Part shown: piece after piece, positions 9,623-57,021 of the stretch
How the letters are laid out: the number at the start of each line of letters is the position of its first letter
How positions within the stretch are numbered: position 1 is the stretch's first letter
Assembly: GCA_007123575.1 (NCBI GenBank)
Contig: SKKV01000141.1
Location: 1-58,008 of the forward strand
Direction: 5' to 3'
Source: Wenzhouxiangella sp.
Lineage (GTDB): Bacteria > Pseudomonadota > Gammaproteobacteria > Xanthomonadales > Wenzhouxiangellaceae
Length of the DNA stretch: 58,008 bases
Notes under the pieces: generated by a model
Database searches by the model: none
Told to the model about the DNA's origin: nothing
What the model saw: only the letters and a program-made list of their open reading frames with translations
Made by a program: the position numbers and the translations under genes

Positions 9623-10933
9623 ATGAACAACATCGAAACCCCCATCCGCCAGGCTGCCGCGGCCCTGCGCGAAGCCGAGCGGCCGCTGAGAATTCTGGGG
9701 CTCCTGGCCTGGCCGCTGGCGGTGCGGGAACGTTTCCTGGCCAGCAATGGCGAGCAAATGCCTGACGTCACCTACGAGCGCGCCGACACTCGAATCGTTG
9801 AAGACGCGCTAACCCGGGCAAGACCCATCATTCGGCAAACCGGCCCGGCACAAGAGTGGTTCGAGCGCATTGCCGAGCGAATCGCCACAGCCAACCAGAT
9901 GCTGAATCACGTCGGCCAGCACTCTTTCTACCAGTGTTCAAGCCAGCTTTACGGGGCGCCGGATCTCGCTCCCGCCGACTCGGGACGCACCCCGCTGGAA
10001 CTGGCCCGCCGCCTGCGGCGCATTATCGACCGGCTCAGTCATGTCGACCTGGGAGCGCCGGCCGACCCGTCGGCAACCGCCGACGAGGTCGCCAAGCGCA
10101 TGCAAAAGGCCGTCAAGCAGTTCTTCGCCGACGAAGCACCAGCCATCGAAGTGGTCGACAACCTCTCGGCCAATGCTACTGCCGGACCGGAGCGCATTCG
10201 CATTCGCGCCACCGCCCGGTTTACAGACCGCGACGTAGAACAGCTGATTCACCACGAAGCCGGCATTCATGTCACGACCAGCCTGAACGGCCGGCACCAG
10301 GACGACCTGCCGATCCTGGCCGCCAGCCATCCCGGCACGACCCGGACCCAGGAAGGCCTGGCCGTGTTTGCCGAATTCATCACCGGTTGCATGGACCTGG
10401 ACCGCTTGAGCCGGCTGGCCGACCGCGTGCTGGGCATCCAGATGGCCGCTGCCGGCGCCGACTTTATCGAAGTATATCGCCATTTCCTCGAACAGCTCCA
10501 GGCCCGCGACGGCACTGACGATGCCAATACCGAGCTGACCCAGCGCAAGGCGGCGTTCGAGCAAACCCGGCGCGTGTTTCGCGGCGGCGTACTCGACGGC
10601 GGAGCGCCGTTCACCAAGGATGTGGTCTACCTGGATGGGCTGTTGCGCGTGCATGATTTCCTGCGCTCGGTGGTGGCAGCCGGGCGAGCCGACGTGCTGA
10701 TGCTGCTGTTTTGCGGCAAGCTGGATCTGGACGACATTCCAGTGCTCGGCAAGCTGGCGGATAGGGGGCTGTTGAAGCCGCCGCGCTTTTTGCCCAGCTG
10801 GGCGGCCGACCGTCGTTTCCTGGTCAGCTACCTGGCCTATTCCGGCTTCCTGGGCCGGGTCAGCATGGGCAAGGTGCACGAGCGTTACACCGATTTGCTG
10901 CAGCATGTGCCGGAGGTGCGGTTTTCAGCCTGA
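9623..10933 (+). CDS. QEGLA-motif metallopeptidase (DUF1704 / MATCAP-like Tyr/Phe carboxypeptidase family)
   Basis: HEAGIH (HExxxH), TRTQEGLA, FTKDVVYLDG motifs. Confidence 0.85.
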   Translation: MNNIETPIRQAAAALREAERPLRILGLLAWPLAVRERFLASNGEQMPDVTYERADTRIVEDALTRARPIIRQTGPAQEWFERIAERIATANQMLNHVGQHSFYQCSSQLYGAPDLAPADSGRTPLELARRLRRIIDRLSHVDLGAPADPSATADEVAKRMQKAVKQFFADEAPAIEVVDNLSANATAGPERIRIRATARFTDRDVEQLIHHEAGIHVTTSLNGRHQDDLPILAASHPGTTRTQEGLAVFAEFITGCMDLDRLSRLADRVLGIQMAAAGADFIEVYRHFLEQLQARDGTDDANTELTQRKAAFEQTRRVFRGGVLDGGAPFTKDVVYLDGLLRVHDFLRSVVAAGRADVLMLLFCGKLDLDDIPVLGKLADRGLLKPPRFLPSWAADRRFLVSYLAYSGFLGRVSMGKVHERYTDLLQHVPEVRFSA

Positions 10934-24505: not shown

Positions 24506-26224
24506 ATGAAAACCTCTCAATTCCACCTCGTCACCCAGCGCGAGGTTCCTTCTGATGCGGAAATCGTTTCCCATCAGCTGATGTTGCGCGCCGGCATGAT
24601 CCGCAAGCTCACCTCCGGAATCTACACCTGGACGCCACTGGGCCTGCGCGTGCTGCGCAAGGTCGAGCAGGTGGTGCGCGAAGAAATGAATGCCGCCGGC
24701 TGCCTGGAAATGCTGATGCCGTCGGTTCAGCCGGCCGAGCTGTGGCAGGAAACCGGGCGCTGGGACGATTTCGGTCCGCTGCTATTGAAAATGGCCGACC
24801 GCGCCGGGCGCGAGTTTGCCTTCGGCCCGACCCACGAGGAAGTGATTACCGAGTTTGCCCGCGGCGAGGTGCGCTCTTACAAGCAGCTGCCGATCTGCTT
24901 CTACCAGATTCAGACCAAGTTCCGCGATGAAATCCGGCCGCGCTTCGGCGTGATGCGGGCCCGCGAGTTCCTGATGAAAGACGGCTACTCCTTCCATATC
25001 GACGACGACTGCCTGGGCCGTTTCTACCAGGTCATGTATACAACCTACAGCCGAATCTTTGAACGTCTGGAACTCAAGTTCAAGGCCGTGACCGCCGACT
25101 CTGGCGCCATTGGCGGCGCCGTCAGCCACGAGTTTCACGTCCTGGCCGACTCCGGCGAAGACCAGATTGCACACGTGCCCGACAGCAGCTACGCGGCCAA
25201 TGTCGAACAGGCCGAAGCGCTGGCCCGAGGGGAGCGCGCCGAGCCGACCGAGGAACTGCGCCTGGTCGATACCCCGAACGCGCGCACCATTGCCGACCTG
25301 GTCGAACAATTTGGCCAGCCGATCGAGAAAACCGTCAAGACCCTGGTCGTGGCCGCCAGCGAGGAAGTCGATGCCGACTTTATCGCCCTGCTGGTGCGCG
25401 GCGACCACGAACTCAACGCCGTCAAGGCCGAGAAACTGGCCCAGGTCGCCGCTCCGCTGCGCATGGCCAGCGAAGAAGAAATCCGCAAAGCCATCGGCGC
25501 CGGTCCTGGCAGCCTCGGCCCAATCAACTTACCCATTCCCTGCATCATCGACCGCCAGGTCGCGCTGATGAGCGACTTCTCGGCCGGCGCCAATACCGAC
25601 GGCAAGCACCATTTTGGAATCAACTGGGAACGCGACCTGGCCGAGCCCGAAATTGCCGATCTTCGTAACGTGGTCACAGGCGACCCGGCCGCCGACGGCT
25701 CCGGCCAGCTTGAGCTGATTCGCGGCATCGAGGTTGGGCACATTTTCCAGCTCGGGCGCAAGTACTCCGAGGCCATGAATGCCGTGGTCATGGATGAAAA
25801 CGGCCGCGGCATTCATCCGGCCATGGGCTGCTACGGCATCGGCGTGTCGCGCATCGTCGCCGCCGCGATCGAACAGAATCACGATGACAACGGCATCATC
25901 TGGCCCGAGCCGATGGCGCCTTTCGATGTCGTACTGCTGCCGCTCAATGCCAAGAAATCTCACCGGGTGCGCGAGCTTGCCGACAAGCTTTATGCCGAAC
26001 TGAATGCGGCCGGGCTGGAGGTGCTGATGGATGACCGTCCGCTGCGACCGGGCGTGATGTTCGCCGATGCCGAGCTGATCGGTATCCCACACCATCTGGT
26101 CATCGGCGATCGCGGCCTGGACAACGGCGTGGTCGAGTACCGGCGCCGTGGCGGCGAGAGCCAGGAAATCCCGATCGACCAGGTCAACACCTGGATGGTT
26201 CGAGTAAGACAGCCGACAAATTGA
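24506..26224 (+). CDS. proS: Proline--tRNA ligase
   Basis: [35 protein letters not shown], editing insert, [18 protein letters not shown]. Confidence 0.98.
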
Positions 26225-26241: not shown

Positions 26242-26814
26242 GTGGAATCCAACGAGCAACATCAAGTCACCCAATTGCTGGCGCATCTGGGCAAAACGCC
26301 CGATGCGCTGGACCGCCTGGCACGGCTGGTCTACGACGACATCCATCGTCTCGCCCGGCACCAGCGCCAGGGGTTCAAGGGCGGCGAGACACTGCGCACC
26401 ACCGCCCTTGTTCACGAAGCCTTTCTCAAGGTTTTTCGCACTGATGACGCCACCATCCACGACCGCTCGCACCTGATGCGGGTAATGGCGCTGGCCATGC
26501 GCCAGATCATCGTCGACCATGCCCGCCGCCAACTTGCCGAAAAGCGCGGCGGCGATGCCGTTCATGTGGCCCTGGACGAGCAGCAGGTCAGCGATTCCCA
26601 GGTTGACGCCGAGCGTATCCTCGATATCGAGCAGGCCATCAAGCGCCTTGGCGAAACTGACAGCACCCTGGCCGACCTGGTTGCCGCCCGTTTCTACACG
26701 GGCCTAAGCACCGACGAGATTGCCGACATGCAAGGCGTATCACGCCGCACCATCCAGCGCCAGCTAAAGCGCGCCAACGTCTGGCTGCGCTTTGAGCTGC
26801 AGGGCGCGGTCTGA
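26242..26814 (+). CDS. ECF-type RNA polymerase sigma factor, Ser/Thr-kinase-associated type (ECF43/TIGR02999-like)
   Basis: VTQLL, L..LVY..I..LA, TLRTTALVHEAFLK, AMRQIIVDHAR...EKRGG, C-terminal HTH (GLSTDEIA..GVSRRTIQR); GTG start assumed. Confidence 0.9.
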   Translation: MESNEQHQVTQLLAHLGKTPDALDRLARLVYDDIHRLARHQRQGFKGGETLRTTALVHEAFLKVFRTDDATIHDRSHLMRVMALAMRQIIVDHARRQLAEKRGGDAVHVALDEQQVSDSQVDAERILDIEQAIKRLGETDSTLADLVAARFYTGLSTDEIADMQGVSRRTIQRQLKRANVWLRFELQGAV

Positions 26815-26817
26815 CGC

Positions 26818-28800
26818 CTAGGGAGCCTCGGCCAGCTGCGCATCCTCGCCGACCAACAGCGACTCCAGCCGGGCCAGGCGCTCCTCGAGCTCCGCATTGT
26901 GCGCAGCGATCTGACGCAACTCGGCATTTTCTCGCTTAAGCGTATCAACCCGCCGAGCCAACTCGGCATCGCGTTCGGCCCGTTCGGACAACATGGCCTG
27001 GAGCCACTGCTCGCGCTCCTGCATGGCACTGATCAGGAGGACGGACAAACGGGCATACCGAATGCTGTCAGGGCGCCCCTCGGCATCGAACACCACCAGG
27101 GAAGGATCGATTTCTGCAAGCTCTTCGGCGATCAGCCCAAGATCCTCTTTACCATCGGCCGTGAATCGATACCTGACCGGACGCATCGACATCACCTGCG
27201 CCCAGCCCAGTTCGATCTCTTCAATCTCTGTCTTATAGCGCAGGCTGCTGCTCGAGCACGGCGCCAATCGGCCGGTACTGGGCACCCGGCAAACCTCCTC
27301 GGAACCCACCGTGGTGCCCAATGAGCCCACAAACACAGTGCTTCCGAAATTACCTTGTCCGGTCGTCAGAATGTTTTCGCTTCTGATCGTACCGTCCACA
27401 TCGAGCGGGTGGGCAGGCGCTGCCGTACCAATTCCAACGGAGGCATCTACCAGGAGCTGGCCGGCAATTTCAGTGTCACCGCCCAGCCGGGTATCGCCAG
27501 CCACGTCCAGCAAGGCCTGAGGGCTATTGGTGTTGATGCCGACGCCACCGTCGGCGGCAATCAGGAACTGATCTTCCGCTGTCGATTCGAATTCATCCTG
27601 TAGCCCGCCCCGGCTGTCTGACCAAACGAAGCTGCCATCATGCAGGGCCCAGGCAGCCTTGCCGGCTGCCATCGAATAGTCACCCATGGCCCGGTTGCGA
27701 TAACCGCCGGGAACATGGGCATATTCGCCGTTGGCCCAGTTCAGTTCACCACCAGCCACGGTAGCACCCTCACCATGAGCACGGTTAAAGCGCCCGCCGC
27801 CGATGAAGCTGTTGTCGCCGAACGCCTCATGGTCACGACCGGCAGCGACACCGCTATTGGCGCCATGCACCTCGTTATTCCAACCGCCGCCAATAAACCC
27901 CCAGGTTGCGTTTTCTTCAATGACATTATTTTGACCACCAGCTACGACGCTTCTCAGCCCATGGGCCTCATTGAATCGACCACCACCGACGAAAGAATAA
28001 TTTCTCGTCACCAGATTCCCGCCGCCGCCGGCAATCGAGGCGTGCTGGGCTGAAGATTCAATCTCGTTGTCATGACCGGTAAGGATGGCGCTATCAATTC
28101 CGTGAAGCCGGTGGTCTCTTCCGCCGCCGATAAACCCTCTCGCGGCGGTGACCTCGTTATTCCCGCCGGCAACGAAACTTCCCGCCCCTGATGCCACGTT
28201 GGAGCCACCGAAAGCACCACCAACCGCGATCGCATTCGTGCCTGACACCGTATGATCGGGTGAACCAAGCGCGACCGAACCCGCGGCATGGAATGTGGCC
28301 GCTGGCTGGTCAGTGCCAACGCCAACCCTCCCGTCCAGATAAAACGCCGTGGTCCCGACCAGTTCAAACGGCGAAGCGCCTTCCGGGCCTTCCGGGCCTT
28401 CCGGGCCTTCCGGGCCTTCCGGGCCTTCTGGACCCTCTGGACCCTCTGGACCCGCTGGCGTCATCGCGAACTGGGCCATGGGTGCTGCCGTGATCGGCTG
28501 ACGCGGGGCCATGGTGGTTCCTTCAACGCTGACCTGCAGATAAAGACTGCTGCCGTCGAATACATCACCGAAATCCAGCTCCACCTGAAACAGGCCATCG
28601 GTCACCGTCACATCGGATTTACTGACGAGACCGCCGACCGCACTGCCTGCGTTTAGGCTGTCGTATAGCCGAAACGTCATGTCGGCCGTTCCGGTGTAGG
28701 GACCGGATTGGTCATGGAGCTGGCCCTGGTAGGTAATGGGCGCGGCCAGGGCGGCCGTAGCCAGCCAAAGCAATAGCATCAGGATCAATAGTTTTCTCAT
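26818..28800 (-). CDS. Secreted fibre/adhesin-like protein: collagen-like segment, Gly-rich head repeats, Peptidase_S74 autocleaving chaperone, coiled coil
   Basis: Signal peptide MRKLLIL..ALA; ITYQGQL N-domain; (GPE)8; ~14-aa S(F)IGGG.xN repeats; GVGINTNSPQALLDVAG repeats; SSSLRYKTEI..L..V..MRPVRY...GLIAEEL (S74). Confidence 0.85.
   Translation of the reverse strand: MRKLLILMLLLWLATAALAAPITYQGQLHDQSGPYTGTADMTFRLYDSLNAGSAVGGLVSKSDVTVTDGLFQVELDFGDVFDGSSLYLQVSVEGTTMAPRQPITAAPMAQFAMTPAGPEGPEGPEGPEGPEGPEGPEGPEGASPFELVGTTAFYLDGRVGVGTDQPAATFHAAGSVALGSPDHTVSGTNAIAVGGAFGGSNVASGAGSFVAGGNNEVTAARGFIGGGRDHRLHGIDSAILTGHDNEIESSAQHASIAGGGGNLVTRNYSFVGGGRFNEAHGLRSVVAGGQNNVIEENATWGFIGGGWNNEVHGANSGVAAGRDHEAFGDNSFIGGGRFNRAHGEGATVAGGELNWANGEYAHVPGGYRNRAMGDYSMAAGKAAWALHDGSFVWSDSRGGLQDEFESTAEDQFLIAADGGVGINTNSPQALLDVAGDTRLGGDTEIAGQLLVDASVGIGTAAPAHPLDVDGTIRSENILTTGQGNFGSTVFVGSLGTTVGSEEVCRVPSTGRLAPCSSSSLRYKTEIEEIELGWAQVMSMRPVRYRFTADGKEDLGLIAEELAEIDPSLVVFDAEGRPDSIRYARLSVLLISAMQEREQWLQAMLSERAERDAELARRVDTLKRENAELRQIAAHNAELEERLARLESLLVGEDAQLAEAP
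28381..28452 (-). repeat. 9-bp tandem repeat x8 encoding (Gly-Pro-Glu)8
   Basis: Plus strand TTCCGGGCC x5 then (T/C)TCTGGACC x3. Confidence 0.95.
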
Positions 28801-28884
28801 CGCAGTCTGCTCCCGGAATCTTGGTGTATCAGTCGAATCATCGGCCCGAGGCAGAATTAGCCTCAAGACCGGTGTTACCCTCAA

Positions 28885-28913
28885 CAAACGCGGTCTGCAG
28901 AGATTCGCGACAG
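28885..28913 (-). promoter_or_regulatory. Putative ECF promoter of the fibre gene
   Basis: Minus strand CTGTCGCG-aatctctgcagacc(14)-GCGTTTG, 84 nt upstream of ATG; same motif found before the protease gene. Confidence 0.65.
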
Positions 28914-29070
28914 ACAGCCAAACGGTCACCCTGGTTGATGAGTTAATACGCCGACTGGCTGGCGAATCGGTCGAGCACATGGTAGCCAACGCACGACCGT
29001 TCCAGTCCGTCTTCAGACGCGGTCACATGATCCGGCACTGCCCTGGAATAACGGCGCTGCGTCGGCTTGT

Positions 29071-32028
29071 TCAATCGCCCTCAAAACGATCATGGAACAA
29101 GACCGGCCCGGTCACCTCCACGCTCACGGGAACCTCGATGAGCGGATTGTCCGGGTCGTTGCTCTGCAGGCATAGCAGCGCTTCGTGCATGCCCTGATCC
29201 AAATCGCCGGCATCGACGGTTACCGTGACGTCGGACTGCTGGCCGCCGGCGGTGCTGCCACTGTCCGGAGTAACGCTAAGCCAGTCGATATCGGACGGCG
29301 AGTCGCAGCCGCTGACGAGTTGGGCTCGGACCATCAGGGCCCGGTGCGTGGGCTCAATATCGGTTATCGGCTGCCAACCCCCGCCGTCAAGCGCGAAGTA
29401 ACTGCCTTCACCGCCCGGACCGGTGCTGTCGAGCATGACGCTGACTCGTTCCGGAACCGATTGATAACTGACTCCGATATAAACCGTGCCGCTGTCGATG
29501 ATGGCACCGCCGGTGCCGGTATTGACCGTGAACCACAGTGGATTGGTGGCCACGTTCGGGTAGGTGACGGCACCGGCAAGCAGCAGGCTGCCCGGCCGAC
29601 CACCGGGCCCATCGCTGTCGAAAACCAGGACATTGAAAGTAAACGGTTCGTCACGCGCCTGATCGGCGGCCCTGAATGCCACGCATATCCGATTCAGCAA
29701 CCCTGGCTGGCCGACGGCAAAGCCCTCGACAAAGGTAGCTGTCGCAACTTCGCCAGGGACGAATCCCCAGGAGAAATTCGGTAGACCATCGTCGTTGATA
29801 AGCATGCCGGGTGAGTCTGGATCGGCGCAGGAGAAACCGCTTCGCGCGGAGCCAACACTAATGTCGGCCATTGGGGACACGCCGCCAGCCTCGAGCCGGG
29901 CCGCACCTGGTAGCGTGGTTGCTGTTGGCTGGCTGCTAAGCAAGGCCGTTTCGATTCCCCACGTCAATGTACCTCCGCCCATGTTGCTGATCTGGAGGCT
30001 GAGCTGATCGGTCTCGCCAACGTCCAGGGTAGTGGCCAGGCTGGCCGGGGAAACGCTGATCTCCGCTGCTTCGGGCGGCGGCTGATAAGTGACCGTAACG
30101 GTGCGATTGGAACTGATCGACGAGACAGTGCAGCTGGCACCGGACACCGAATCGCAGCCAGACCAGCCGTCGAACTGCTGGCCACTGGCCGTGCCGGGGG
30201 CTGTCAGGGTCACGGTCGTTCCCTGGGTCACGCTGAGACTGTAGTTAGTGGTGCCGCCAAAGCCGCTGGGCGAGGAGGAAATTGCGACATTGCTGACACC
30301 GCTGGAATTCACCTGGAGGGTGCGCTGCGGTGCCACGTAATTGACCGTTACGCTCCTGTCTGCGCTAATCGAATTGATGGTGCACTGGCTGCCCGAGGTA
30401 CTGTCACAGCCGGTCCAGCGATCAAAATCATTGCCGCCCACGCTGGGCGGCGCGGATAGCTGGATGCTGGAACCCGCCGTTACCACTCGACTGTAGTTGG
30501 TGGTGCCACCATGGCCAGTCGAGCTGGTAATCGCAACATTGCTGGCACCATCCGAGTTCACTTCGAGAGAGAAAACGGGCTCCGGGTCCAGCAACTCCGG
30601 ACAGCGCGGGTTGGCCGGATGAAGCTGGCCCTGCGCAACCACATGATCACGCATGATGTTGGGCACCTGCTCCGGGTCGTTGCCAAAGGGGTGGCCACGG
30701 CCGAGCGTGGGCGCGACGTTGGACAAACCAGGCTGTAGCGTATGGCAATAACTCATCAGCGTACCAGACCCCTGTCCCGGCGGGCCGGGCAGAGAAGTCG
30801 GCCCACTGAAGCAGCCCGGCTCCTGACCAAAACACTGATCGATGCCATAGCAGTGAGTATGCTGGGAATCGAAGTTGTGGCCGATTTCGTGGGCGACGAC
30901 CGAGTAGTCCCAGGTACCGGGCGCGTTGCCGGCCTGGTAGTCGCGAGAGATGCCGCGACTGACGGCAAAATCGCCGACGATGTCATCGCGCTCGCCGGAA
31001 AAACCGGTGCAGTTGTCGCCGATATCAAAAGGTAGGAATTGGCTGGCCGACCTGCACAAAACCCCTCGCCAGGCTACACCGTCGCGCGAGCCCGGGCCAG
31101 CGCTGTTGGCGGTTAAGAAGTGGGCAATGGTGCGGTCCTGGTCAACATTGTTTGCGCTGTCATTCCAGAAAATGCCGAACTCGGCCAGCAGGCACAAGGG
31201 GCTGGGGTTGCCGGTGTTCTGCCAGGGCTGCGCTGCCGCCGAGTTCCAAAGGCTGATACTGGAAATCACCAATTCGGTATCCAGTTCATCCTCGTAAATG
31301 CCGGAAATGAAATTGATCAGGTCACCCAGGTAGTCCTGGGCCTCACTGGTGGACCCGAACAGATCGAAAAAGGAAAAGTCACTTTCGAAGGCCACGCGCA
31401 CCCGGTATCGGCCAGACTCACGCAGCCATCGCTCGCCCTCCGGCATGAGACGCTCGGACAGGTCAGGCGCGACAGCGCGAAAATCCAGCGGCTGTTCCAA
31501 CTCATGATTGCCACACTGAAATTCGTCGTGGACATGGTCGATGGACGGCTCGCGGTCTTGATCACGACGAAGCCGCATGCGGCCGGGTGAACCGGCTGGA
31601 TCGGAAGCAGGTCGATTGGAAATGGCCCACTGCCCGCCACGCCCGGCCAAGCTGCCCCGCACATCGCCCTCTGGTCCGACTGACAAGGCCACGTTCGAAT
31701 CCGGTTGACCGGCGATACGTCCCCGATACCAGACACGCTCGGAACGGATGGTGCCAAGCTCCCGACCATTGACCCGGGTGCGGGCGCCAGGGGCAAAGGG
31801 ATCGACTCGCTCCAGCCTGAGCTTCAGGGGCTGGTCGTCGGCCAGGAGATTGTGCACATCAATGCGCGCGGCCGGGCTGTCAGCGATAGACCGCCACTGG
31901 ACGGCATCGTCCGGATCCAGTATCTCGACCTCGGCAAGCGCCGGTGCTGCCAGCACCAGCAGCATGGCAAGCGCCAGGCTTGCCGCCGAAACCCAAGCTG
32001 TAGCCCAGGGTTGAAAACGCTCCATCAT
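29071..32028 (-). CDS. Secreted modular zinc metalloprotease (M12/reprolysin-like) with InlB-B-like repeats and BACON/Ig-like domain
   Basis: GGAGG RBS, signal peptide, prodomain with FQCG switch-like Cys, HEIGHNFDSQH zinc motif, TLMSYC Met-turn, two ~85-aa F..W.GC repeats, WLSVTP.SG..SNDPDNP domain, ends LFHDRFEGD. Confidence 0.88.
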   Translation of the reverse strand: MMERFQPWATAWVSAASLALAMLLVLAAPALAEVEILDPDDAVQWRSIADSPAARIDVHNLLADDQPLKLRLERVDPFAPGARTRVNGRELGTIRSERVWYRGRIAGQPDSNVALSVGPEGDVRGSLAGRGGQWAISNRPASDPAGSPGRMRLRRDQDREPSIDHVHDEFQCGNHELEQPLDFRAVAPDLSERLMPEGERWLRESGRYRVRVAFESDFSFFDLFGSTSEAQDYLGDLINFISGIYEDELDTELVISSISLWNSAAAQPWQNTGNPSPLCLLAEFGIFWNDSANNVDQDRTIAHFLTANSAGPGSRDGVAWRGVLCRSASQFLPFDIGDNCTGFSGERDDIVGDFAVSRGISRDYQAGNAPGTWDYSVVAHEIGHNFDSQHTHCYGIDQCFGQEPGCFSGPTSLPGPPGQGSGTLMSYCHTLQPGLSNVAPTLGRGHPFGNDPEQVPNIMRDHVVAQGQLHPANPRCPELLDPEPVFSLEVNSDGASNVAITSSTGHGGTTNYSRVVTAGSSIQLSAPPSVGGNDFDRWTGCDSTSGSQCTINSISADRSVTVNYVAPQRTLQVNSSGVSNVAISSSPSGFGGTTNYSLSVTQGTTVTLTAPGTASGQQFDGWSGCDSVSGASCTVSSISSNRTVTVTYQPPPEAAEISVSPASLATTLDVGETDQLSLQISNMGGGTLTWGIETALLSSQPTATTLPGAARLEAGGVSPMADISVGSARSGFSCADPDSPGMLINDDGLPNFSWGFVPGEVATATFVEGFAVGQPGLLNRICVAFRAADQARDEPFTFNVLVFDSDGPGGRPGSLLLAGAVTYPNVATNPLWFTVNTGTGGAIIDSGTVYIGVSYQSVPERVSVMLDSTGPGGEGSYFALDGGGWQPITDIEPTHRALMVRAQLVSGCDSPSDIDWLSVTPDSGSTAGGQQSDVTVTVDAGDLDQGMHEALLCLQSNDPDNPLIEVPVSVEVTGPVLFHDRFEGD

Positions 32029-32072
32029 GACCTCCGTAGCCTCTGTGACAATTTTTTGCTGGCTACCAACAT

Positions 32073-32102
32073 CAAACGCAATCGCGCTGCAACGCGCGAC
32101 AG
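32073..32102 (-). promoter_or_regulatory. Putative ECF promoter of the metalloprotease gene
   Basis: Minus strand CTGTCGCG-cgttgcagcgcgatt(15)-GCGTTTG, 44 nt upstream of ATG. Confidence 0.65.
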
Positions 32103-32138: not shown

Positions 32139-33290
32139 TTATTCCTTGCTGGCCTGGTTCAACCGAATCTCACCCCCGTCGCGCACCCAAAGGTCACGCT
32201 GCGGGAACGGAATTTCGATGCCAGTTTCGTTCAGGGCCTTGTAGATCTTCATGTAGAGCTCATGAGTGACCCGGCCTCGCTCGACGGGAAGGTCGACCCA
32301 GCACAGCAGCTCGAAGTCCAGGCTGGAGTCGCCAAAACCACGCATCCGCACTCTCGGCGTTGGATCCTTGCAGACGCTATCGTGATTGGCGGCAATACCC
32401 TCCAACAGCTCAACCACCTCATCGACATCGGAACCGTAGGCAACACCAACCTTGAGCCGGATACGGAATTTGACCCAGCGGCCGCCCGATTCGTTGTAGA
32501 TCTTGGAATTGGCCATCTCCGAATTCGGTACCGTGATTTCGACATCGTCGCGGGTCAGCAAGCGGGTCGAGCGAATGCCGACCTTGGTGACTTCACCGCG
32601 ATCTCCGGAGTCCAGAACGATGTAATCGCCGAGTTTGTAAGGCGAATCGGCAATGATGAAAAACCCGGCAAACAGGTTGGCCAGGGTGTCGCGGGCGGCG
32701 AAGCCAACGGCAATACCGATCACACCGGCCGAGGCCAGCCAGGCAGTGGGGTTGATGTCCCAGACCATCAGCAGCGCGTAGGCCGCCGCGCCGATGATCA
32801 GGATGGTCATGATCAGATCGAACAGCGGCAGGGTGCGCTCTTCGACAATCTCGTAGCGATCACGAATTCGACTCAGGATCTCCAGGCCAAGATGACTGGC
32901 CCGCATGGCCGACTTGATCAGGCGCAGGATCAGCAGGCTCAACAGGATGCGGATCAGGACCTGTTCGACGCGCTCGGCCAGGCCCAACACCTGGATCGCG
33001 AGTACCAGGGCGATATAGCCGACCATCAGGGCGGCAACATTGGCAACGATGCGAATCAGCCGGGGCCCCAGATCCGGGCTGGTGCGCCTGATCAGCTTGT
33101 TGCCCCAGTTCAGAACCATGGCTCGACCGATCACGGCCACGCCGATCCCCACCACCATCACGATCAGGGACAGCACGATGGGGTAGGTGGCCAGGAAATC
33201 CCAGATCGGCACCATGCCGTCGGGCAGCCACAGCGGCGCTTCGGCGCGGTGACGGGCTGCTTCCGCGGCCAACTCGACGTTTTCCGTCAT
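32139..33290 (-). CDS. Small-conductance mechanosensitive channel (MscS family)
   Basis: LASAGVIGIAVGFAARDTLANLFAG, PYKLGDYI, GEVTKVGIRST, VPNS, GIEIPFPQRD. Confidence 0.92.
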   Translation of the reverse strand: MTENVELAAEAARHRAEAPLWLPDGMVPIWDFLATYPIVLSLIVMVVGIGVAVIGRAMVLNWGNKLIRRTSPDLGPRLIRIVANVAALMVGYIALVLAIQVLGLAERVEQVLIRILLSLLILRLIKSAMRASHLGLEILSRIRDRYEIVEERTLPLFDLIMTILIIGAAAYALLMVWDINPTAWLASAGVIGIAVGFAARDTLANLFAGFFIIADSPYKLGDYIVLDSGDRGEVTKVGIRSTRLLTRDDVEITVPNSEMANSKIYNESGGRWVKFRIRLKVGVAYGSDVDEVVELLEGIAANHDSVCKDPTPRVRMRGFGDSSLDFELLCWVDLPVERGRVTHELYMKIYKALNETGIEIPFPQRDLWVRDGGEIRLNQASKE

Positions 33291-53819: not shown

Positions 53820-56495
53820 CTATCGGCCGAGCGCTTTCAGGTCGTCAAGCAGTTCACGGCCATGATCGAGCTCCGGTGCGATCTGGCCTGATTCACGCAG
53901 CTCCACTGGCAGCGCCATCCAGGCCTCCCGCAGGCGATCCAGGCGCTCGCGGCCAATCACCGGCACCTGCGACATTGGCTGGCCGGCATCCCGGAACTGG
54001 CGAATACGATCGCGGTTGACAATGCCGGCATCGCCGTTGACCAGACCGCGAATACGGTCGTCGTGACGCAGCACCCGCGGATAATGCAGCTCCAGGGTGC
54101 GGCGCAGGAGGGCCGTGTACTCAACGATGTCAGCCATTGCCATGGCCACCGGATCAGTTCCGTTTGGCAACATCGGACTGAGCAAACGGCCCGCCAGCTG
54201 GCGCTCGCGGCGGCTGGCCAGGCCGCTCAATTCCGACTCCACGGCCAGGGCCAGGGCTTCGCCGTCATGCTGCTCCAGCGTCTCTACGCGGTCTCCTCCC
54301 GTTATGAACCAGTCGCGCCATTCCGCACCCCGATCCCAGTTCGCCAGGAGCTGAGATTCAGCCGTTGTCGGCAAGTTGACAAAGTAGGTCAGACGGTTCG
54401 GCACTAGCGGCATGCGACCGGACGGCAGTTCGCTGGCGATCGGCTCACCGGCCAGCCCGCGCGGGCAGCGCAGATCCAGCAGCTCGGGATCAGCACCGGC
54501 AAACAGGTAGTGTCGTGGCTCGCTGGCAACCAGGCGCTGGCGGAAAACCACTTCCTCCTCGTCGCCGCGGACGAAGCGCCCAACCAGCTCAAACGACAAG
54601 CGACCGTGATAATTGGCAACCCGCTCATCGTCGGCCCGCGCCGAACGCTTTTCACGCTGCTCCCATCCAACATCCGCGTAGCAGAGCTGCAGACTGCCCA
54701 TGCCCAGCTGGTCAGCCAGCAGGTAGGCGTTGGGAAAGCGCCCCAGCAGGGCACGGCTAACTGGCAACTCGGCACGCGCGCCGCAGGTATCCGCTTCGGG
54801 ACAGGCCTGCACTGTCAGTCCCTCGGGTCGATACGCGGTCACCTGGCTAGCCGCAAGATCAAGATCCAGGTCAGCCCCGGGACGGGTGACATCGGCAAAA
54901 AATTGATCCTGGGCTTCCTGCACGGCCGTTGCCAGCACGCCGTGGGCACGTTCCAGAAGATCCAGCAAGCGCACAACCGGATCGCGGCGCTGCCCGCCCA
55001 TGCCCGTCATGCAATCGAGCCAGTCAGCCCTACTGACAAGGCTTTCCTCTAGTACATCAACAATGGAAGCGGTTGTCTCCCGCCAGCGCGTGGTGCCGAA
55101 AAAGATCGGTCGCTGCGGTACCCAGTGGGCCAGATACTGGGCCAGGATCGACCATTCCAGGACGTTGAGCCACTGCGTTTCCGTACAGCCGCTTTGCAGT
55201 CGCCAATCCAGGTGGCTGTCCAGATAACGGGCACGTTGCCAGCTGACCAGGCCAGTCTCTCGACGCAGGAACTCCGGCGCAAAAGGGCCGCTGCCGCCGA
55301 CCAGCTCTTCGCGGTCCAATTCGTCAACCATCACTGTAGTCAGGCGCTGCAGGCAGTCATCAAAGACTTCGCGCGGCACCGGCCCGACCAGGCCCGGGTC
55401 AATATTGCAATCACTGATTACCCGGCGAATATCGTCGCGGACCGGCTGTTCCAGGTAAAAGCCGACATCGGAGGCAAACAACACCAGTCGCGCATAGGCG
55501 TCCGAAAGCTCGCTAATCGCAGCCAAGCGATCCGGACCGGTCACCGCCAGGTAGCCGGCAGCATCCTGCATCTGGGCCAGAACGACCGGCAGATCGATAT
55601 CCAGTCCGCGCAGTTGGGTCAAGGATTCATCCGTCCAGGCCACCAGGTCGTCCTGGTAACGGGACGCCAGCGCTACATCTTCATCGGCGGCGGCCAATCG
55701 GACAAGGCCATCGAAATAGCGCCATACCGCGGCCAGGAAGGCTTCTCGATCGCGCTCCAGACGCGCGTCAGCCAGCAGCAGTTCGGCCAGACCTCGCTGG
55801 TAAGCGCCGTCATCAGGCGCATCAGCCAGGCGTCGAATCCGCTCAGCCTGTTCGCGCGCGTGATCCATCCAGAATGTCGGACCGGCCTGATCCAGGTCTT
55901 CCAGCAGCGGCTGCCAGAAATCAGCCACCGAGGGAATCGCGACCGGCGCTTCCCCTTCACGCGAATCAGCTTCGGGGGCTTCTGTCTGTGGCGCATCGAT
56001 CTGCACGACGTCTGCTTCCAGCGCTTCGATCAAGTCATCCAGTCGCCGCCAGACTTGCTCGGCCTCAATCGCGGCCAGCCAGTAGAGGCGGGCCAGCCGC
56101 CCGGCCTGCCAGTCACCGTCGAGCAGACTCGAAGCGCCCGCAAGGTCTTTTGACACCAGGGCCGGACGTTCTCCGGGAAGGTTTCGGTCGCGCACATGAA
56201 CCAGCCAACCGAACATCCCATCCGCCGGCGGCGCCCACTCCGGCGGCACGCGCACCGCCGAACGCTCCAGCAGGAGCAGTCGCGAGTCCACCGCCGAGCG
56301 CCACTGGCCAGGATCCACCTCTCCACTATCCAGCCAAAGACTCAGGGCCAAGGTGCGGCGTCGCGCCTCCACCGCCGTTGCCGGGTGCCAGTGCAAAGCC
56401 AGCACGTCGGTCTCCTCGGCCACGGCAGCGCCATGACTTTCGGCCAGCAACGGCGCCAGCAGCAACACCAGAACGGTCAAGGTGATTCGTCTCAT
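53820..56495 (-). CDS. Large exported hypothetical protein (891 aa)
   Basis: Long uninterrupted ORF filling the gap; signal peptide MRRITLTVLVLLLAPLLA; no family recognised. Confidence 0.8.
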   Translation of the reverse strand: MRRITLTVLVLLLAPLLAESHGAAVAEETDVLALHWHPATAVEARRRTLALSLWLDSGEVDPGQWRSAVDSRLLLLERSAVRVPPEWAPPADGMFGWLVHVRDRNLPGERPALVSKDLAGASSLLDGDWQAGRLARLYWLAAIEAEQVWRRLDDLIEALEADVVQIDAPQTEAPEADSREGEAPVAIPSVADFWQPLLEDLDQAGPTFWMDHAREQAERIRRLADAPDDGAYQRGLAELLLADARLERDREAFLAAVWRYFDGLVRLAAADEDVALASRYQDDLVAWTDESLTQLRGLDIDLPVVLAQMQDAAGYLAVTGPDRLAAISELSDAYARLVLFASDVGFYLEQPVRDDIRRVISDCNIDPGLVGPVPREVFDDCLQRLTTVMVDELDREELVGGSGPFAPEFLRRETGLVSWQRARYLDSHLDWRLQSGCTETQWLNVLEWSILAQYLAHWVPQRPIFFGTTRWRETTASIVDVLEESLVSRADWLDCMTGMGGQRRDPVVRLLDLLERAHGVLATAVQEAQDQFFADVTRPGADLDLDLAASQVTAYRPEGLTVQACPEADTCGARAELPVSRALLGRFPNAYLLADQLGMGSLQLCYADVGWEQREKRSARADDERVANYHGRLSFELVGRFVRGDEEEVVFRQRLVASEPRHYLFAGADPELLDLRCPRGLAGEPIASELPSGRMPLVPNRLTYFVNLPTTAESQLLANWDRGAEWRDWFITGGDRVETLEQHDGEALALAVESELSGLASRRERQLAGRLLSPMLPNGTDPVAMAMADIVEYTALLRRTLELHYPRVLRHDDRIRGLVNGDAGIVNRDRIRQFRDAGQPMSQVPVIGRERLDRLREAWMALPVELRESGQIAPELDHGRELLDDLKALGR

Positions 56496-56533
56496 GGCCG
56501 CTATACTACCCGCCAACTCCCCCGGCGCGCAGC

Positions 56534-57021
56534 ATGATGAAGAAACTGAATATCCTGACCACCGGCGGCACCATCGACAAGATTTACTACGATGACAAGT
56601 CCGACTACCAGATCGGCGAGCCGGAAATCGGGCGCATTCTGCGGGCCATGAACGTGGCCTTCGAATGGGAAATCCGCGCCTTGCTACGCAAGGACTCCCT
56701 GCACCTGAATGACAACGACCGCGCCCTGATACGGCAGGCAATATTGGCCAGCGACGACAAGCACTGCCTGATCACCCACGGCACCGACACCATGGTCGAA
56801 ACCGCCGCCGCCCTCGGCGACCTGGGCGAGCGCGTCGTCGTCATGACCGGCGCCCTCAACCCGGCCCGCTTCATCGACTCCGATGCGGTGTTCAACATCG
56901 GCTGCGCTGTCGGTGCCGTCCAGTGCCTGCCGCCGGGCATCTGGATCACCATGAACGGGCGGGTCTGGGACCCGAAAAAGTCAGAAAGAACCGAGACGCC
57001 AATCGCTTCGAGGCGTTTTAA
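56534..57021 (+). CDS. Single-domain L-asparaginase family protein with apparent -1 frameshift near the 3' end
   Basis: TTGGTIDK and HGTDTM motifs; adding one A at the A5 run 56975-56979 gives DPKKVRKNRDANRFEAF* ending at 57021 and removes the overlap with the next gene. Confidence 0.8.

What the first reader, a model, noticed from the sequence alone, without database searches (positions are those of the whole stretch)
26242..32102. Candidate ECF-controlled secreted fibre/protease module: shared bipartite promoter before both genes
Seen in sequence: on the minus strand both secreted-protein genes are preceded by the same two boxes, CTGTCGCG-N14-GCGTTTG (28885-28913) and CTGTCGCG-N15-GCGTTTG (32073-32102). 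The two spacers share only TGCAG, and the boxes lie 84 and 44 nt from the start codons. This -35/-10 geometry is typical of ECF promoters, and an ECF sigma gene lies convergently next to the fibre gene. Inference: the sigma factor co-activates a trimeric fibre and a modular metalloprotease, forming an adhesion plus proteolysis module possibly used in predation or defence. The related EcfK of Xanthomonas citri controls an anti-amoeba T6SS; I know of no described regulon of this fibre/protease kind.
Basis: partly seen in the sequence, partly recalled or inferred. Interest (0 to 1): 0.8.

Follow-up and report, generated by a model that had tools for sequence, protein, structure and literature searches.

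The report
Kinase-switched sigma's fibre/protease regulon
Two neighbouring genes, for a predicted secreted fibre and a predicted secreted protease, share a two-part DNA signal that recurs before many unrelated exported-protein genes in related salt-lake bacteria and tracks one lineage of sigma factor and its kinase, so it is likely the promoter through which that kinase-activated sigma would switch on a variable set of surface proteins.

Summary
In five relatives with the close sigma orthologue, 15 of 19 matches lie before signal-peptide genes; in five without it, 0 of 5. The sigma is ECF43-type (TIGR02999, RTTA). Its likely cognate kinase is missing from the locus but present on contig C113. 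Motif A sits beside this sigma or kinase lineage, while a sister lineage carries another variant, TGTC(C/T)T-N17-CGTA (6 of 8 versus 14 of 15 kinase loci; 2 of 49 others). Fibre plus protease is not a fixed module: the cargo is interchangeable (S74 fibres, M12 proteases, beta-helix proteins) and scattered, with at least five candidate sites in this genome. Nothing was shown experimentally, there is no RNA data, the raw genome-wide count is not above control (16 versus 19), and a role in predation is untested. Verdict: a known switch type with a newly mapped, testable promoter and regulon.

The parts
24506..26224 (+). proS (prolyl-tRNA synthetase, named from its sequence); the sigma starts 17 nt downstream and is likely co-transcribed with it
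   Evidence: ORF; proS directly precedes the orthologous sigma in G008, G009, G014, G018, G020 and twice in G057
26242..26814 (+). ECF43-type sigma factor, 190 aa; RTTA motif, T54 (codon 26401-26403) aligns with T51 of an EcfK-type protein
   Evidence: TIGR02999 160.8 bits over a cut-off of 126.15; PF07638 E 1.4e-38; 34% identical to the T6SS-linked QATE sigma
26818..28800 (-). Secreted fibre, 660 aa: signal peptide, YQG N-terminal beta-sandwich (residues 21-116), (GPE)8 collagen-like run (117-140), UspA1/YadA-like head repeats, two VG(I)(N/G)TxxPxxxL loops, S74 chaperone with SSxRYK (517) and a coiled coil
   Evidence: Pfam PF13884 and PF01391; UspA1 E 4e-13; model and Foldseek hits to UspA1, BpaC and the MyRF ICA domain; residue positions
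28907..28912 (-). Predicted -35 box TGTCGC of the fibre promoter
   Evidence: invariant in a three-way alignment of fibre leaders whose spacers differ
28887..28890 (-). Predicted -10 box CGTT of the fibre promoter (16-nt spacer); start site predicted near 28880-28883
   Evidence: the start site is inferred
29071..32025 (-). Secreted M12/reprolysin-type metalloprotease, 984 aa: signal peptide, pro-region with QCGN (170), HEIGHNFDSQH (379), Met-turn LMSY (423), two InlB-B repeats, BACON domain, C-terminal FHDRFE tag
   Evidence: Pfam PF13688 E 2.6e-20, PF18998, PF19190; positions
32096..32101 (-). Predicted -35 box TGTCGC of the protease promoter
32075..32078 (-). Predicted -10 box CGTT of the protease promoter (17-nt spacer); start site predicted near 32068-32071
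   Evidence: the start site is inferred
32139..33290 (-). mscS-family channel gene, the fixed right flank of the variable slot; not part of the regulon
   Evidence: NCBIfam MscS/MscK hits below their cut-offs; same flank in G006, G008, G015, G017, G024

Best explanation
The two boxes are likely the -35 (TGTCGC) and -10 (CGTT) elements read by the adjacent ECF43-type sigma factor, which would be switched on by phosphorylation and would then transcribe the fibre, the protease and a few scattered exported-protein genes. Shown: the motif, its conservation before unrelated secreted genes, its association with this sigma and kinase lineage, and the sigma's RTTA motif. Inferred: (1) the sigma is made from the proS operon and is not autoregulated; (2) a membrane Ser/Thr kinase, most likely the one on contig C113, senses an outside cue and phosphorylates T54, as shown for EcfK and EcfP; (3) the phospho-sigma starts transcription a few bases past CGTT; (4) the products reach the cell surface as an interchangeable kit for adhesion and proteolysis. 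In G008, G009 and G017 the kinase follows the sigma directly; here that slot holds cargo genes instead, each with its own copy of the promoter.
For: Footprint: TGTCGCG and CGTT are invariant in three fibre leaders while the spacer differs. Enrichment: 19 matches against 3 reversed controls in five genomes with the close orthologue, 15 of 19 intergenic before a signal-peptide gene (10 of the 14 not used to define the motif); 5 against 10 in five genomes without it, 0 of 5 intergenic. Across the genus: 32 against 4 in the 12 genomes with an orthologue of 55% identity or more, 20 against 46 in the other 47 (counted by hand). Position: at all 4 clade-A sigma loci with an adjacent cargo gene whose leader is on the contig (window, G018, G020, G049), motif A precedes it, and the cargo differs each time. 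In G006, G015, G016 and G018 it lies between a cargo gene and the divergent orthologous kinase. Double dissociation: on the kinase tree 6 of 8 clade-A rows have motif A within 6 kb, 14 of 15 clade-B rows have motif B, and 2 of 49 other rows have either. Among 40 further sigma loci, 8 of 11 clade-B loci carry the B variant and 0 of 19 clade-C loci carry any variant. No motif lies within 300 nt upstream of 13 clade-A sigma genes. The C113 kinase is 74% identical over 136 aa to the kinase that follows the sigma in G009 and has GxGGMG, VAIK, HGDIKPNN, DFG, APE and one TM helix. The geometry matches ECF41 and ECF42 promoters (TGTCACA/CGTC, TGTCGAT/CGTC; PMC7826278 supplement).
Against: All evidence is comparative. 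In this genome the raw count of motif A is not above its reversed control (16 against 19; intergenic 7 against 6; within 30-110 nt of a same-strand start 5 against 0). G057 (two clade-A sigmas), G017 and G024 show no motif-A site before a secreted gene; G024 and G017 have only TGTCCC variants before a fibre. G013 has two motif-A sites but its best sigma match is 47% (80% complete). The genomes are kin, and several loci were fetched because of a fibre or a motif, so the counts overstate significance. The published prediction for ECF43 is GTC at -35 and CAG at -10, which agrees at -35 only. In six EcfK-type T6SS regions the general pattern is not enriched (12 intergenic against 15 reversed over all 18 regions fetched). 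The C113 kinase is cut by the contig end, and the genome is 83% complete.
Confidence: 0.75

Rival explanations
1. The boxes are an ECF43 promoter, but another paralogue reads them (the genome has 16), for example the C73 sigma or an unassembled sister of the G006/G015 'A2' type, or several paralogues share them.
For: 16 ECF43-like genes and about 27 kinases in G000. The C73 sigma has the same RTVQRQLKRA helix as clade A and sits beside a fibre gene. G013 has motif-A sites but only an A2-type sigma among its matches. In G006 and G015 an A2 sigma lies about 8 kb from motif A.
Against: No motif at the C73-type loci examined (C73, L046-L048, L233, L283, L288). The kinases next to motif A fall in clade A with C113, not with C73 or A2.
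Confidence: 0.12
2. A non-ECF43 factor reads the motif: an ECF41/42/56-type sigma, which use TGTC.../CGTC promoters, or a DNA-binding activator. The link to ECF43 would then be shared ancestry of neighbouring genes.
For: ECF41 and ECF42 promoters are very similar. The genome is incomplete: even RpoD was not found. In EcfK-type T6SS regions a related TGTCGG core is part of a longer element with no conserved -10 partner, so TGTCG need not be a sigma box.
Against: No ECF42 C-terminal domain in G000, G014, G018 or G020; 1 of 5 genomes had one. The three other ECFs found in G000 have no C-terminal extension. One outside factor would not explain two motif variants that each follow a different ECF43 sigma/kinase clade.
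Confidence: 0.09
3. The repeat is a by-product: chance, inherited flanking DNA of mobile cargo genes, or part of the mscS terminator hairpin.
For: No raw excess in this genome. A 5-pair hairpin overlaps the protease-side spacer (10 such sites found against 8.5 in shuffles).
Against: The same boxes with unrelated spacers precede non-homologous genes, in one orientation, 22-135 nt from the start. 17 of 70 fibre leaders carry the general pattern against 4 of 297 other leaders.
Confidence: 0.04

Closest known systems
EcfK/PknS of Xanthomonas citri (ECF43; PMC13147305, PMC6653060, passages)
   Same: TIGR02999 sigma with the phospho-acceptor Thr in region 2.2 (T54 aligns with T51); membrane Hanks kinase with a long N-terminal extension; output is envelope or secreted machinery.
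   Different: Sigma and kinase are unlinked here; the targets are scattered fibres, proteases and beta-helix proteins, not one T6SS cluster; EcfK-type T6SS operons carry a different element.
EcfP/PknT of Vibrio parahaemolyticus (ECF43; review passages in PMC8999054 and PMC8103513; the primary paper was not available)
   Same: Non-charged xTTA in place of DAED; activation by Thr phosphorylation is inferred by likeness.
   Different: EcfP controls polymyxin resistance; the passages read give no promoter for it.
ECF41 and ECF42 promoters (PMC7826278 supplement, part 13)
   Same: TGTC-led -35 box, CGT-led -10 box, similar spacing.
   Different: Those sigmas carry C-terminal extensions of about 120-200 aa and target genes next to themselves; this one is 190 aa, without extension, and shows no self-promoter.
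Bdellovibrio MAT fibres (PMC10769870, passages)
   Same: Signal peptide, conserved beta-rich N-terminal domain, variable trimeric shaft, S74 terminus or a swapped tip, VG..xxPxxxL loops, many copies per genome (up to 14 matches).
   Different: Homology of the N-terminal domain (about 96 aa here, about 130 aa in MAT) was not tested; no binding or surface display shown; the passages read link MATs to no ECF sigma.
M12B/reprolysin-like bacterial metzincins
   Same: HExxHxxxxxH zinc motif, Met-turn, pro-region with a Cys.
   Different: Asp in place of the usual Gly in the zinc motif; long InlB-B/BACON tail and an FxDxFE C-terminal tag for which three searches found no description.

Membership tests
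ECF43 sigma | Sigma70_ECF (PF07638) / TIGR02999 domain | tested here: met
   above both curated cut-offs
ECF43 sigma | Non-charged S/T motif (QTTA consensus) replacing DAED, with the conserved Thr | tested here: met
   RTTA; T54 aligned to T51 of the EcfK-type protein
ECF43 sigma | Ser/Thr kinase gene at position +1 | tested here: not met
   The fibre gene follows the sigma. The orthologous kinase is on C113; it is at +1 in G008, G009 and G017, so this looks like a secondary split
ECF43 sigma | No anti-sigma gene and no C-terminal extension | tested here: met
   190 aa; neighbours are proS and the fibre
ECF43 sigma | Activation by phosphorylation | not testable with these tools
   inferred from EcfK and EcfP
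ECF promoter | Two boxes at fixed spacing, oriented towards a gene and conserved in relatives | tested here: met
ECF promoter | Transcription start just behind the -10 box, dependent on the sigma | not testable with these tools
   needs RNA or reporter data
S74 trimeric fibre | C-terminal S74 chaperone with S-x-x-R/x-K autocleavage motif and trimer-type repeats | tested here: met
   PF13884 34 bits over 22; SSSLRYK; collagen-like run; UspA1 and MyRF ICA matches. Trimer formation follows from these domain types and was not modelled
MAT superfamily (Bdellovibrio) | The conserved MAT N-terminal domain | tested here: inconclusive
   No MAT sequence was at hand. The domain maps to Pfam 38 entry PF30789 through a homologue and folds as a generic beta-sandwich (best Z 6.7, rmsd 3.4, 76 aligned)
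MAT superfamily (Bdellovibrio) | Surface display and binding to prey | not testable with these tools
   -
M12 metzincin | HExxHxxGxxH and Met-turn | tested here: met
   HEIGHNFDSQH (three His and the Glu present; Asp for Gly, homologues have Gly or Asn) and LMSY
ECF41/ECF42 system | Sigma with SnoaL or TPR C-terminal extension in the genome | tested here: inconclusive
   none found in G000, but the genome is 83% complete

The most novel reading that the evidence does not exclude
The many ECF43/kinase pairs of Wenzhouxiangella and other Xanthomonadales form parallel, insulated channels with a simple promoter code (TGTCnn-N16/17-CGTW, where nn and W change with the sigma lineage). Each channel senses a surface cue and deploys a swappable kit of MAT-like fibres, proteases and beta-helix proteins, many with an undescribed FxDxFE sorting tag, for recognising and digesting prey cells or protein particles; a small FxDxFE protein encoded next to fibre genes would anchor the fibres.
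Probability: 0.25. Interest if true: 0.8.

Novelty: new variant of a known kind. Interest (0 to 1): 0.5.

Why it matters
ECF43 is the model group for sigma factors activated by phosphorylation, yet the papers I could read give only a weak promoter prediction (GTC/CAG). A likely reason, inferred here, is that these sigmas are not autoregulated, so a motif upstream of the sigma gene is absent. Looking upstream of the cargo gives a concrete promoter, with lineage-specific variants, that can be tested with a two-plasmid reporter and used to read regulons from genomes. It also ties an outside-in kinase signal to a polymorphic fibre and protease set in a genus with a described predatory member (PMC7691419). 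It is not a new kind of system, and notes from this scan report similar circuits in many other genomes.

Tried and rejected
TGCAG as a spacer element: not conserved. A fixed fibre-protease pair: rejected. Autoregulation: no motif before 13 clade-A sigmas. A sigma-70 promoter for the cargo: the only candidate overlaps the protease start codon. RNA evidence: no RNA holder listed. Order-wide test on all signal-peptide genes near ECF43 loci with a first, narrower pattern: weak (3 of 86 against 1). A relaxed pattern in G016, G017, G024, G049 and G057: 20 hits against 30 controls. EcfK-type T6SS loci: general pattern not enriched; my first regex for their own element had a spacing slip, corrected. 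Complex prediction of the fibre N-domain with the small FxDxFE protein: no answer, score 0.28 under the mark of 0.32. N-domain against solved structures: no clear match. No solved structure matched the sigma. The small protein matched no Pfam or NCBIfam family. Literature searches for an ECF43 promoter, the FxDxFE tag and PF30789 found no description; one search returned only unrelated papers. Iyer 2020 was not held; I did not look up Bayer-Santos 2018. Either may define a promoter. One supplementary file of PMC10769870 could not be searched, and that of PMC7826278 is cut.
Full report
Observation. The exact pattern occurs twice in the window, never in 100 shuffles, and nowhere else in the genome. 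Relatives named by the tools are Wenzhouxiangella, and the DNA holders are salt-lake, soda-lake and alkali-sediment metagenomes. Contigs from other runs span the sigma-fibre junction and, in one run, both promoters.

Genes. The order is proS(+), sigma(+), fibre(-), protease(-), mscS(-). The sigma passes TIGR02999 and PF07638 and has RTTA where ECF43 proteins have QTTA (PMC13147305, passages); its T54 aligns with T51 of a T6SS-linked EcfK-type protein. The fibre has a signal peptide, an N-terminal beta-sandwich, a collagen-like run, UspA1-like repeats and an S74 domain. The protease has an M12 catalytic domain, InlB-B and BACON domains and a C-terminal FHDRFE tag. Both have lower GC3 and dicodon scores than their flanks. 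The genome holds 16 ECF43-like genes and about 27 kinases over the cut-off. Genes were called with my own dicodon script and signal peptides were judged by N-terminal hydropathy, so both are approximate.

The true motif. Reading the loci of the closest sigma orthologues gave the core TGTCGC-N16/17-CGTT before different secreted genes in G006, G015 (twice), G018, G020 and G049. Three fibre leaders keep the boxes while the spacer diverges. With the pattern TGTCGC-N16/17-CGTTHHT, five genomes with the close orthologue gave 19 matches against 3 reversed controls, and five without gave 5 against 10. Of the 19, 15 are intergenic before a signal-peptide gene, 10 of them new; of the 5, none is intergenic. 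Across the genus the counts were 32 against 4 in 12 orthologue genomes and 20 against 46 in 47 others (hand count; this pattern does not match the two window sites). I fetched 20 of the remaining sites: in orthologue genomes 4 of 8 were intergenic before a secreted gene, and G013 and G019 gave such sites without a detected close orthologue. The G019 site lies at the same mscS-side locus.

Regulon. In this genome a matrix trained only on other genomes ranks sites before a secreted LamG-type gene (C237), a second fibre (C304), the two window genes and a DUF3592 gene (C69) among its top 17 (families from homologues). The C237 and C69 genes have motif-bearing homologues in G008 and G013. The raw count, however, is 16 against 19 reversed; only position separates them. 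Cargo elsewhere includes S74 fibres, another M12 protease (G014), beta-helix and Pmp-repeat proteins and carboxypeptidase-regulatory-domain proteins. G014 thus has both a fibre and an M12 protease under the motif, at separate loci. Homologues of the window protease itself lack the motif. The pair is one sample of a variable kit.

Which factor reads it. In G008, G009 and G017 a kinase follows the sigma. Its best match in this genome is on C113, with intact catalytic motifs and one TM helix but cut by the contig end. In G006, G015, G016 and G018 the motif lies between a cargo gene and that kinase's orthologue. Sampling 60 more ECF43 loci showed a second variant, TGTC(C/T)T-N17-CGTA, beside a sister clade: 7 of 7 cargo rows in the own family carried it or a close variant, and 5 of 15 rows in other families carried TGTCCC, TGTCAC or TGTCAG variants (four of the misses have doubtful start calls). 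The general pattern hit 29 of 592 leaders against 5 reversed. In 40 further loci it hit 13 of 235 leaders against 0: 8 of 11 clade-B loci, 0 of 19 clade-C, 0 of 6 B2, 0 of 2 C73-type, 1 of 1 A2, 0 of 1 other (five of the eight had been seen before fetching, where the raw genus-wide count was not above control). Around fibre genes, 17 of 70 fibre leaders, 2 of 26 tagged-protein leaders and 4 of 297 others matched. On a FastTree kinase tree, 6 of 8 clade-A rows have motif A within 6 kb, 14 of 15 clade-B rows motif B, and 2 of 49 others either (the 23 G000 rows were not labelled). In this genome motif B has 5 matches, all intergenic, against 6 reversed, none intergenic. Kinship and locus choice inflate these counts, but two variants each following its own sigma/kinase clade are hard to explain with one outside factor. 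No ECF42 domain was found in 4 of 5 genomes tested.

Against. No experiment, and the sigma-promoter link is inferred. G017, G024 and G057 have clade-A sigmas without a motif-A target. Clade C shows no cargo motif. In EcfK-type T6SS loci the general pattern is not enriched; instead GAGAC(G/A)-N3-TG(T/A/C)CGG occurs 17 times in 4 of 6 genomes (0 reversed), mostly before the PAAR, vgrG, tssK and tssB genes, without a conserved -10 partner (these gene names are my reading of the sequences except tssB). It shares a TGTCG core but neither confirms nor refutes the reading. The published ECF43 prediction is GTC and CAG (PMC7826278 supplement part 13).

Mechanism. Inferred chain: steady sigma synthesis with proS; a cue sensed by the kinase's periplasmic part (TPR repeats in a clade-A kinase); phosphorylation of T54; transcription from motif A; export of fibre and protease; S74-assisted trimer assembly; pro-peptide removal from the protease. 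Two promoters in tandem, with no terminator called between the genes, would give the fibre a double input. The purpose is open. One strain of the genus preys on Gram-positive cells and is thought to keep its proteases on the outer membrane (PMC7691419, section 19), and the fibres resemble Bdellovibrio MAT adhesins in plan (PMC10769870, passages). Attachment to protein particles, biofilm formation or defence against grazers fit as well.

Papers seen: PMC13147305, PMC6653060, PMC8999054, PMC8103513 (passages); PMC7826278 (passages and supplement part 13); PMC7691419 (passages and section 19); PMC10769870 (passages and a term search of one of two supplements). Iyer 2020 and Bayer-Santos 2018 are known to me only through these. 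The role of the pro-region Cys and the trimeric nature of collagen and YadA repeats are recalled knowledge. Earlier notes of this scan describe similar ECF43 circuits in other genomes; they are unchecked and are not counted as support.

Verdict. A real promoter-like motif, probably read by the adjacent ECF43 sigma (0.75), controlling a scattered and variable set of exported proteins. A new variant of a known kind; interest 0.5.

Noticed in passing
G000:C171:23468-23806 (-), start of the gene after the C73 fibre (L417:1-588), and 30 distinct hits in fetched loci: A small secreted protein family (about 70 aa mature, ending in FxDxFE) lies directly beside YQG-domain fibre genes in most hits; no Pfam or NCBIfam match. 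The window fibre has no adjacent copy. Possibly an anchor for fibres, whose own C-terminus would be cut off by S74.
   Followed up: partly
18 genes in G000 and many relatives: A C-terminal (I/L)FxD(R/G)FE tag on diverse secreted proteins looks like a sorting or anchoring signal; no description found.
   Followed up: partly
G000:C44:834, 2515, 2548; C175:3528; C177:7590: A second candidate regulon with motif B, probably read by the C25 sigma; targets include a 1764-aa secreted protein, a tagged protein and an HExxH protein.
   Followed up: partly
L439-L448 (G292, G471, G387, G377): Conserved element GAGAC(G/A)-N3-TG(T/A/C)CGG before T6SS operons in EcfK-type clusters, 17 sites; a candidate site for the sigma or for another activator.
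   Followed up: partly
L239 and L242: TGTCGT-N17-CGTT lies 198-228 nt upstream of a clade-C sigma gene itself, a possible autoregulated exception.
   Followed up: no
G006:C22:26965 and G008:C43:67597: An identical promoter and fibre start in two different genomes: recent transfer of a promoter-plus-cargo cassette, or a binning artefact.
   Followed up: no
L322 (two kinases), L326, G000:C190:6103-7680: Clade-A kinases are duplicated, each beside its own cargo gene; C190 holds the C-terminal half of a further similar kinase. Several sensors may feed one sigma.
   Followed up: partly
L328:3127-3378: Only the C-terminal 83 aa of a clade-A sigma remain, convergent with a motif-A fibre and near the kinase.
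   Followed up: no
G000:C193:369-7626: Another ECF43 gene is convergent with an S74 fibre and a large tagged protein, the same layout as the window; its promoter is off the contig.
   Followed up: no
L032:2118-3044 and L093: A motif-A target made of repeated helix-hairpin-helix units behind a signal peptide; function unclear.
   Followed up: no
window 53820-56495 (-): An 891-aa ORF with a signal peptide; no Pfam match for the frame 53823-56741.
   Followed up: no
window 9623-10933 (+): A MATCAP-family (PF08014) tyrosine carboxypeptidase-like gene.
   Followed up: no
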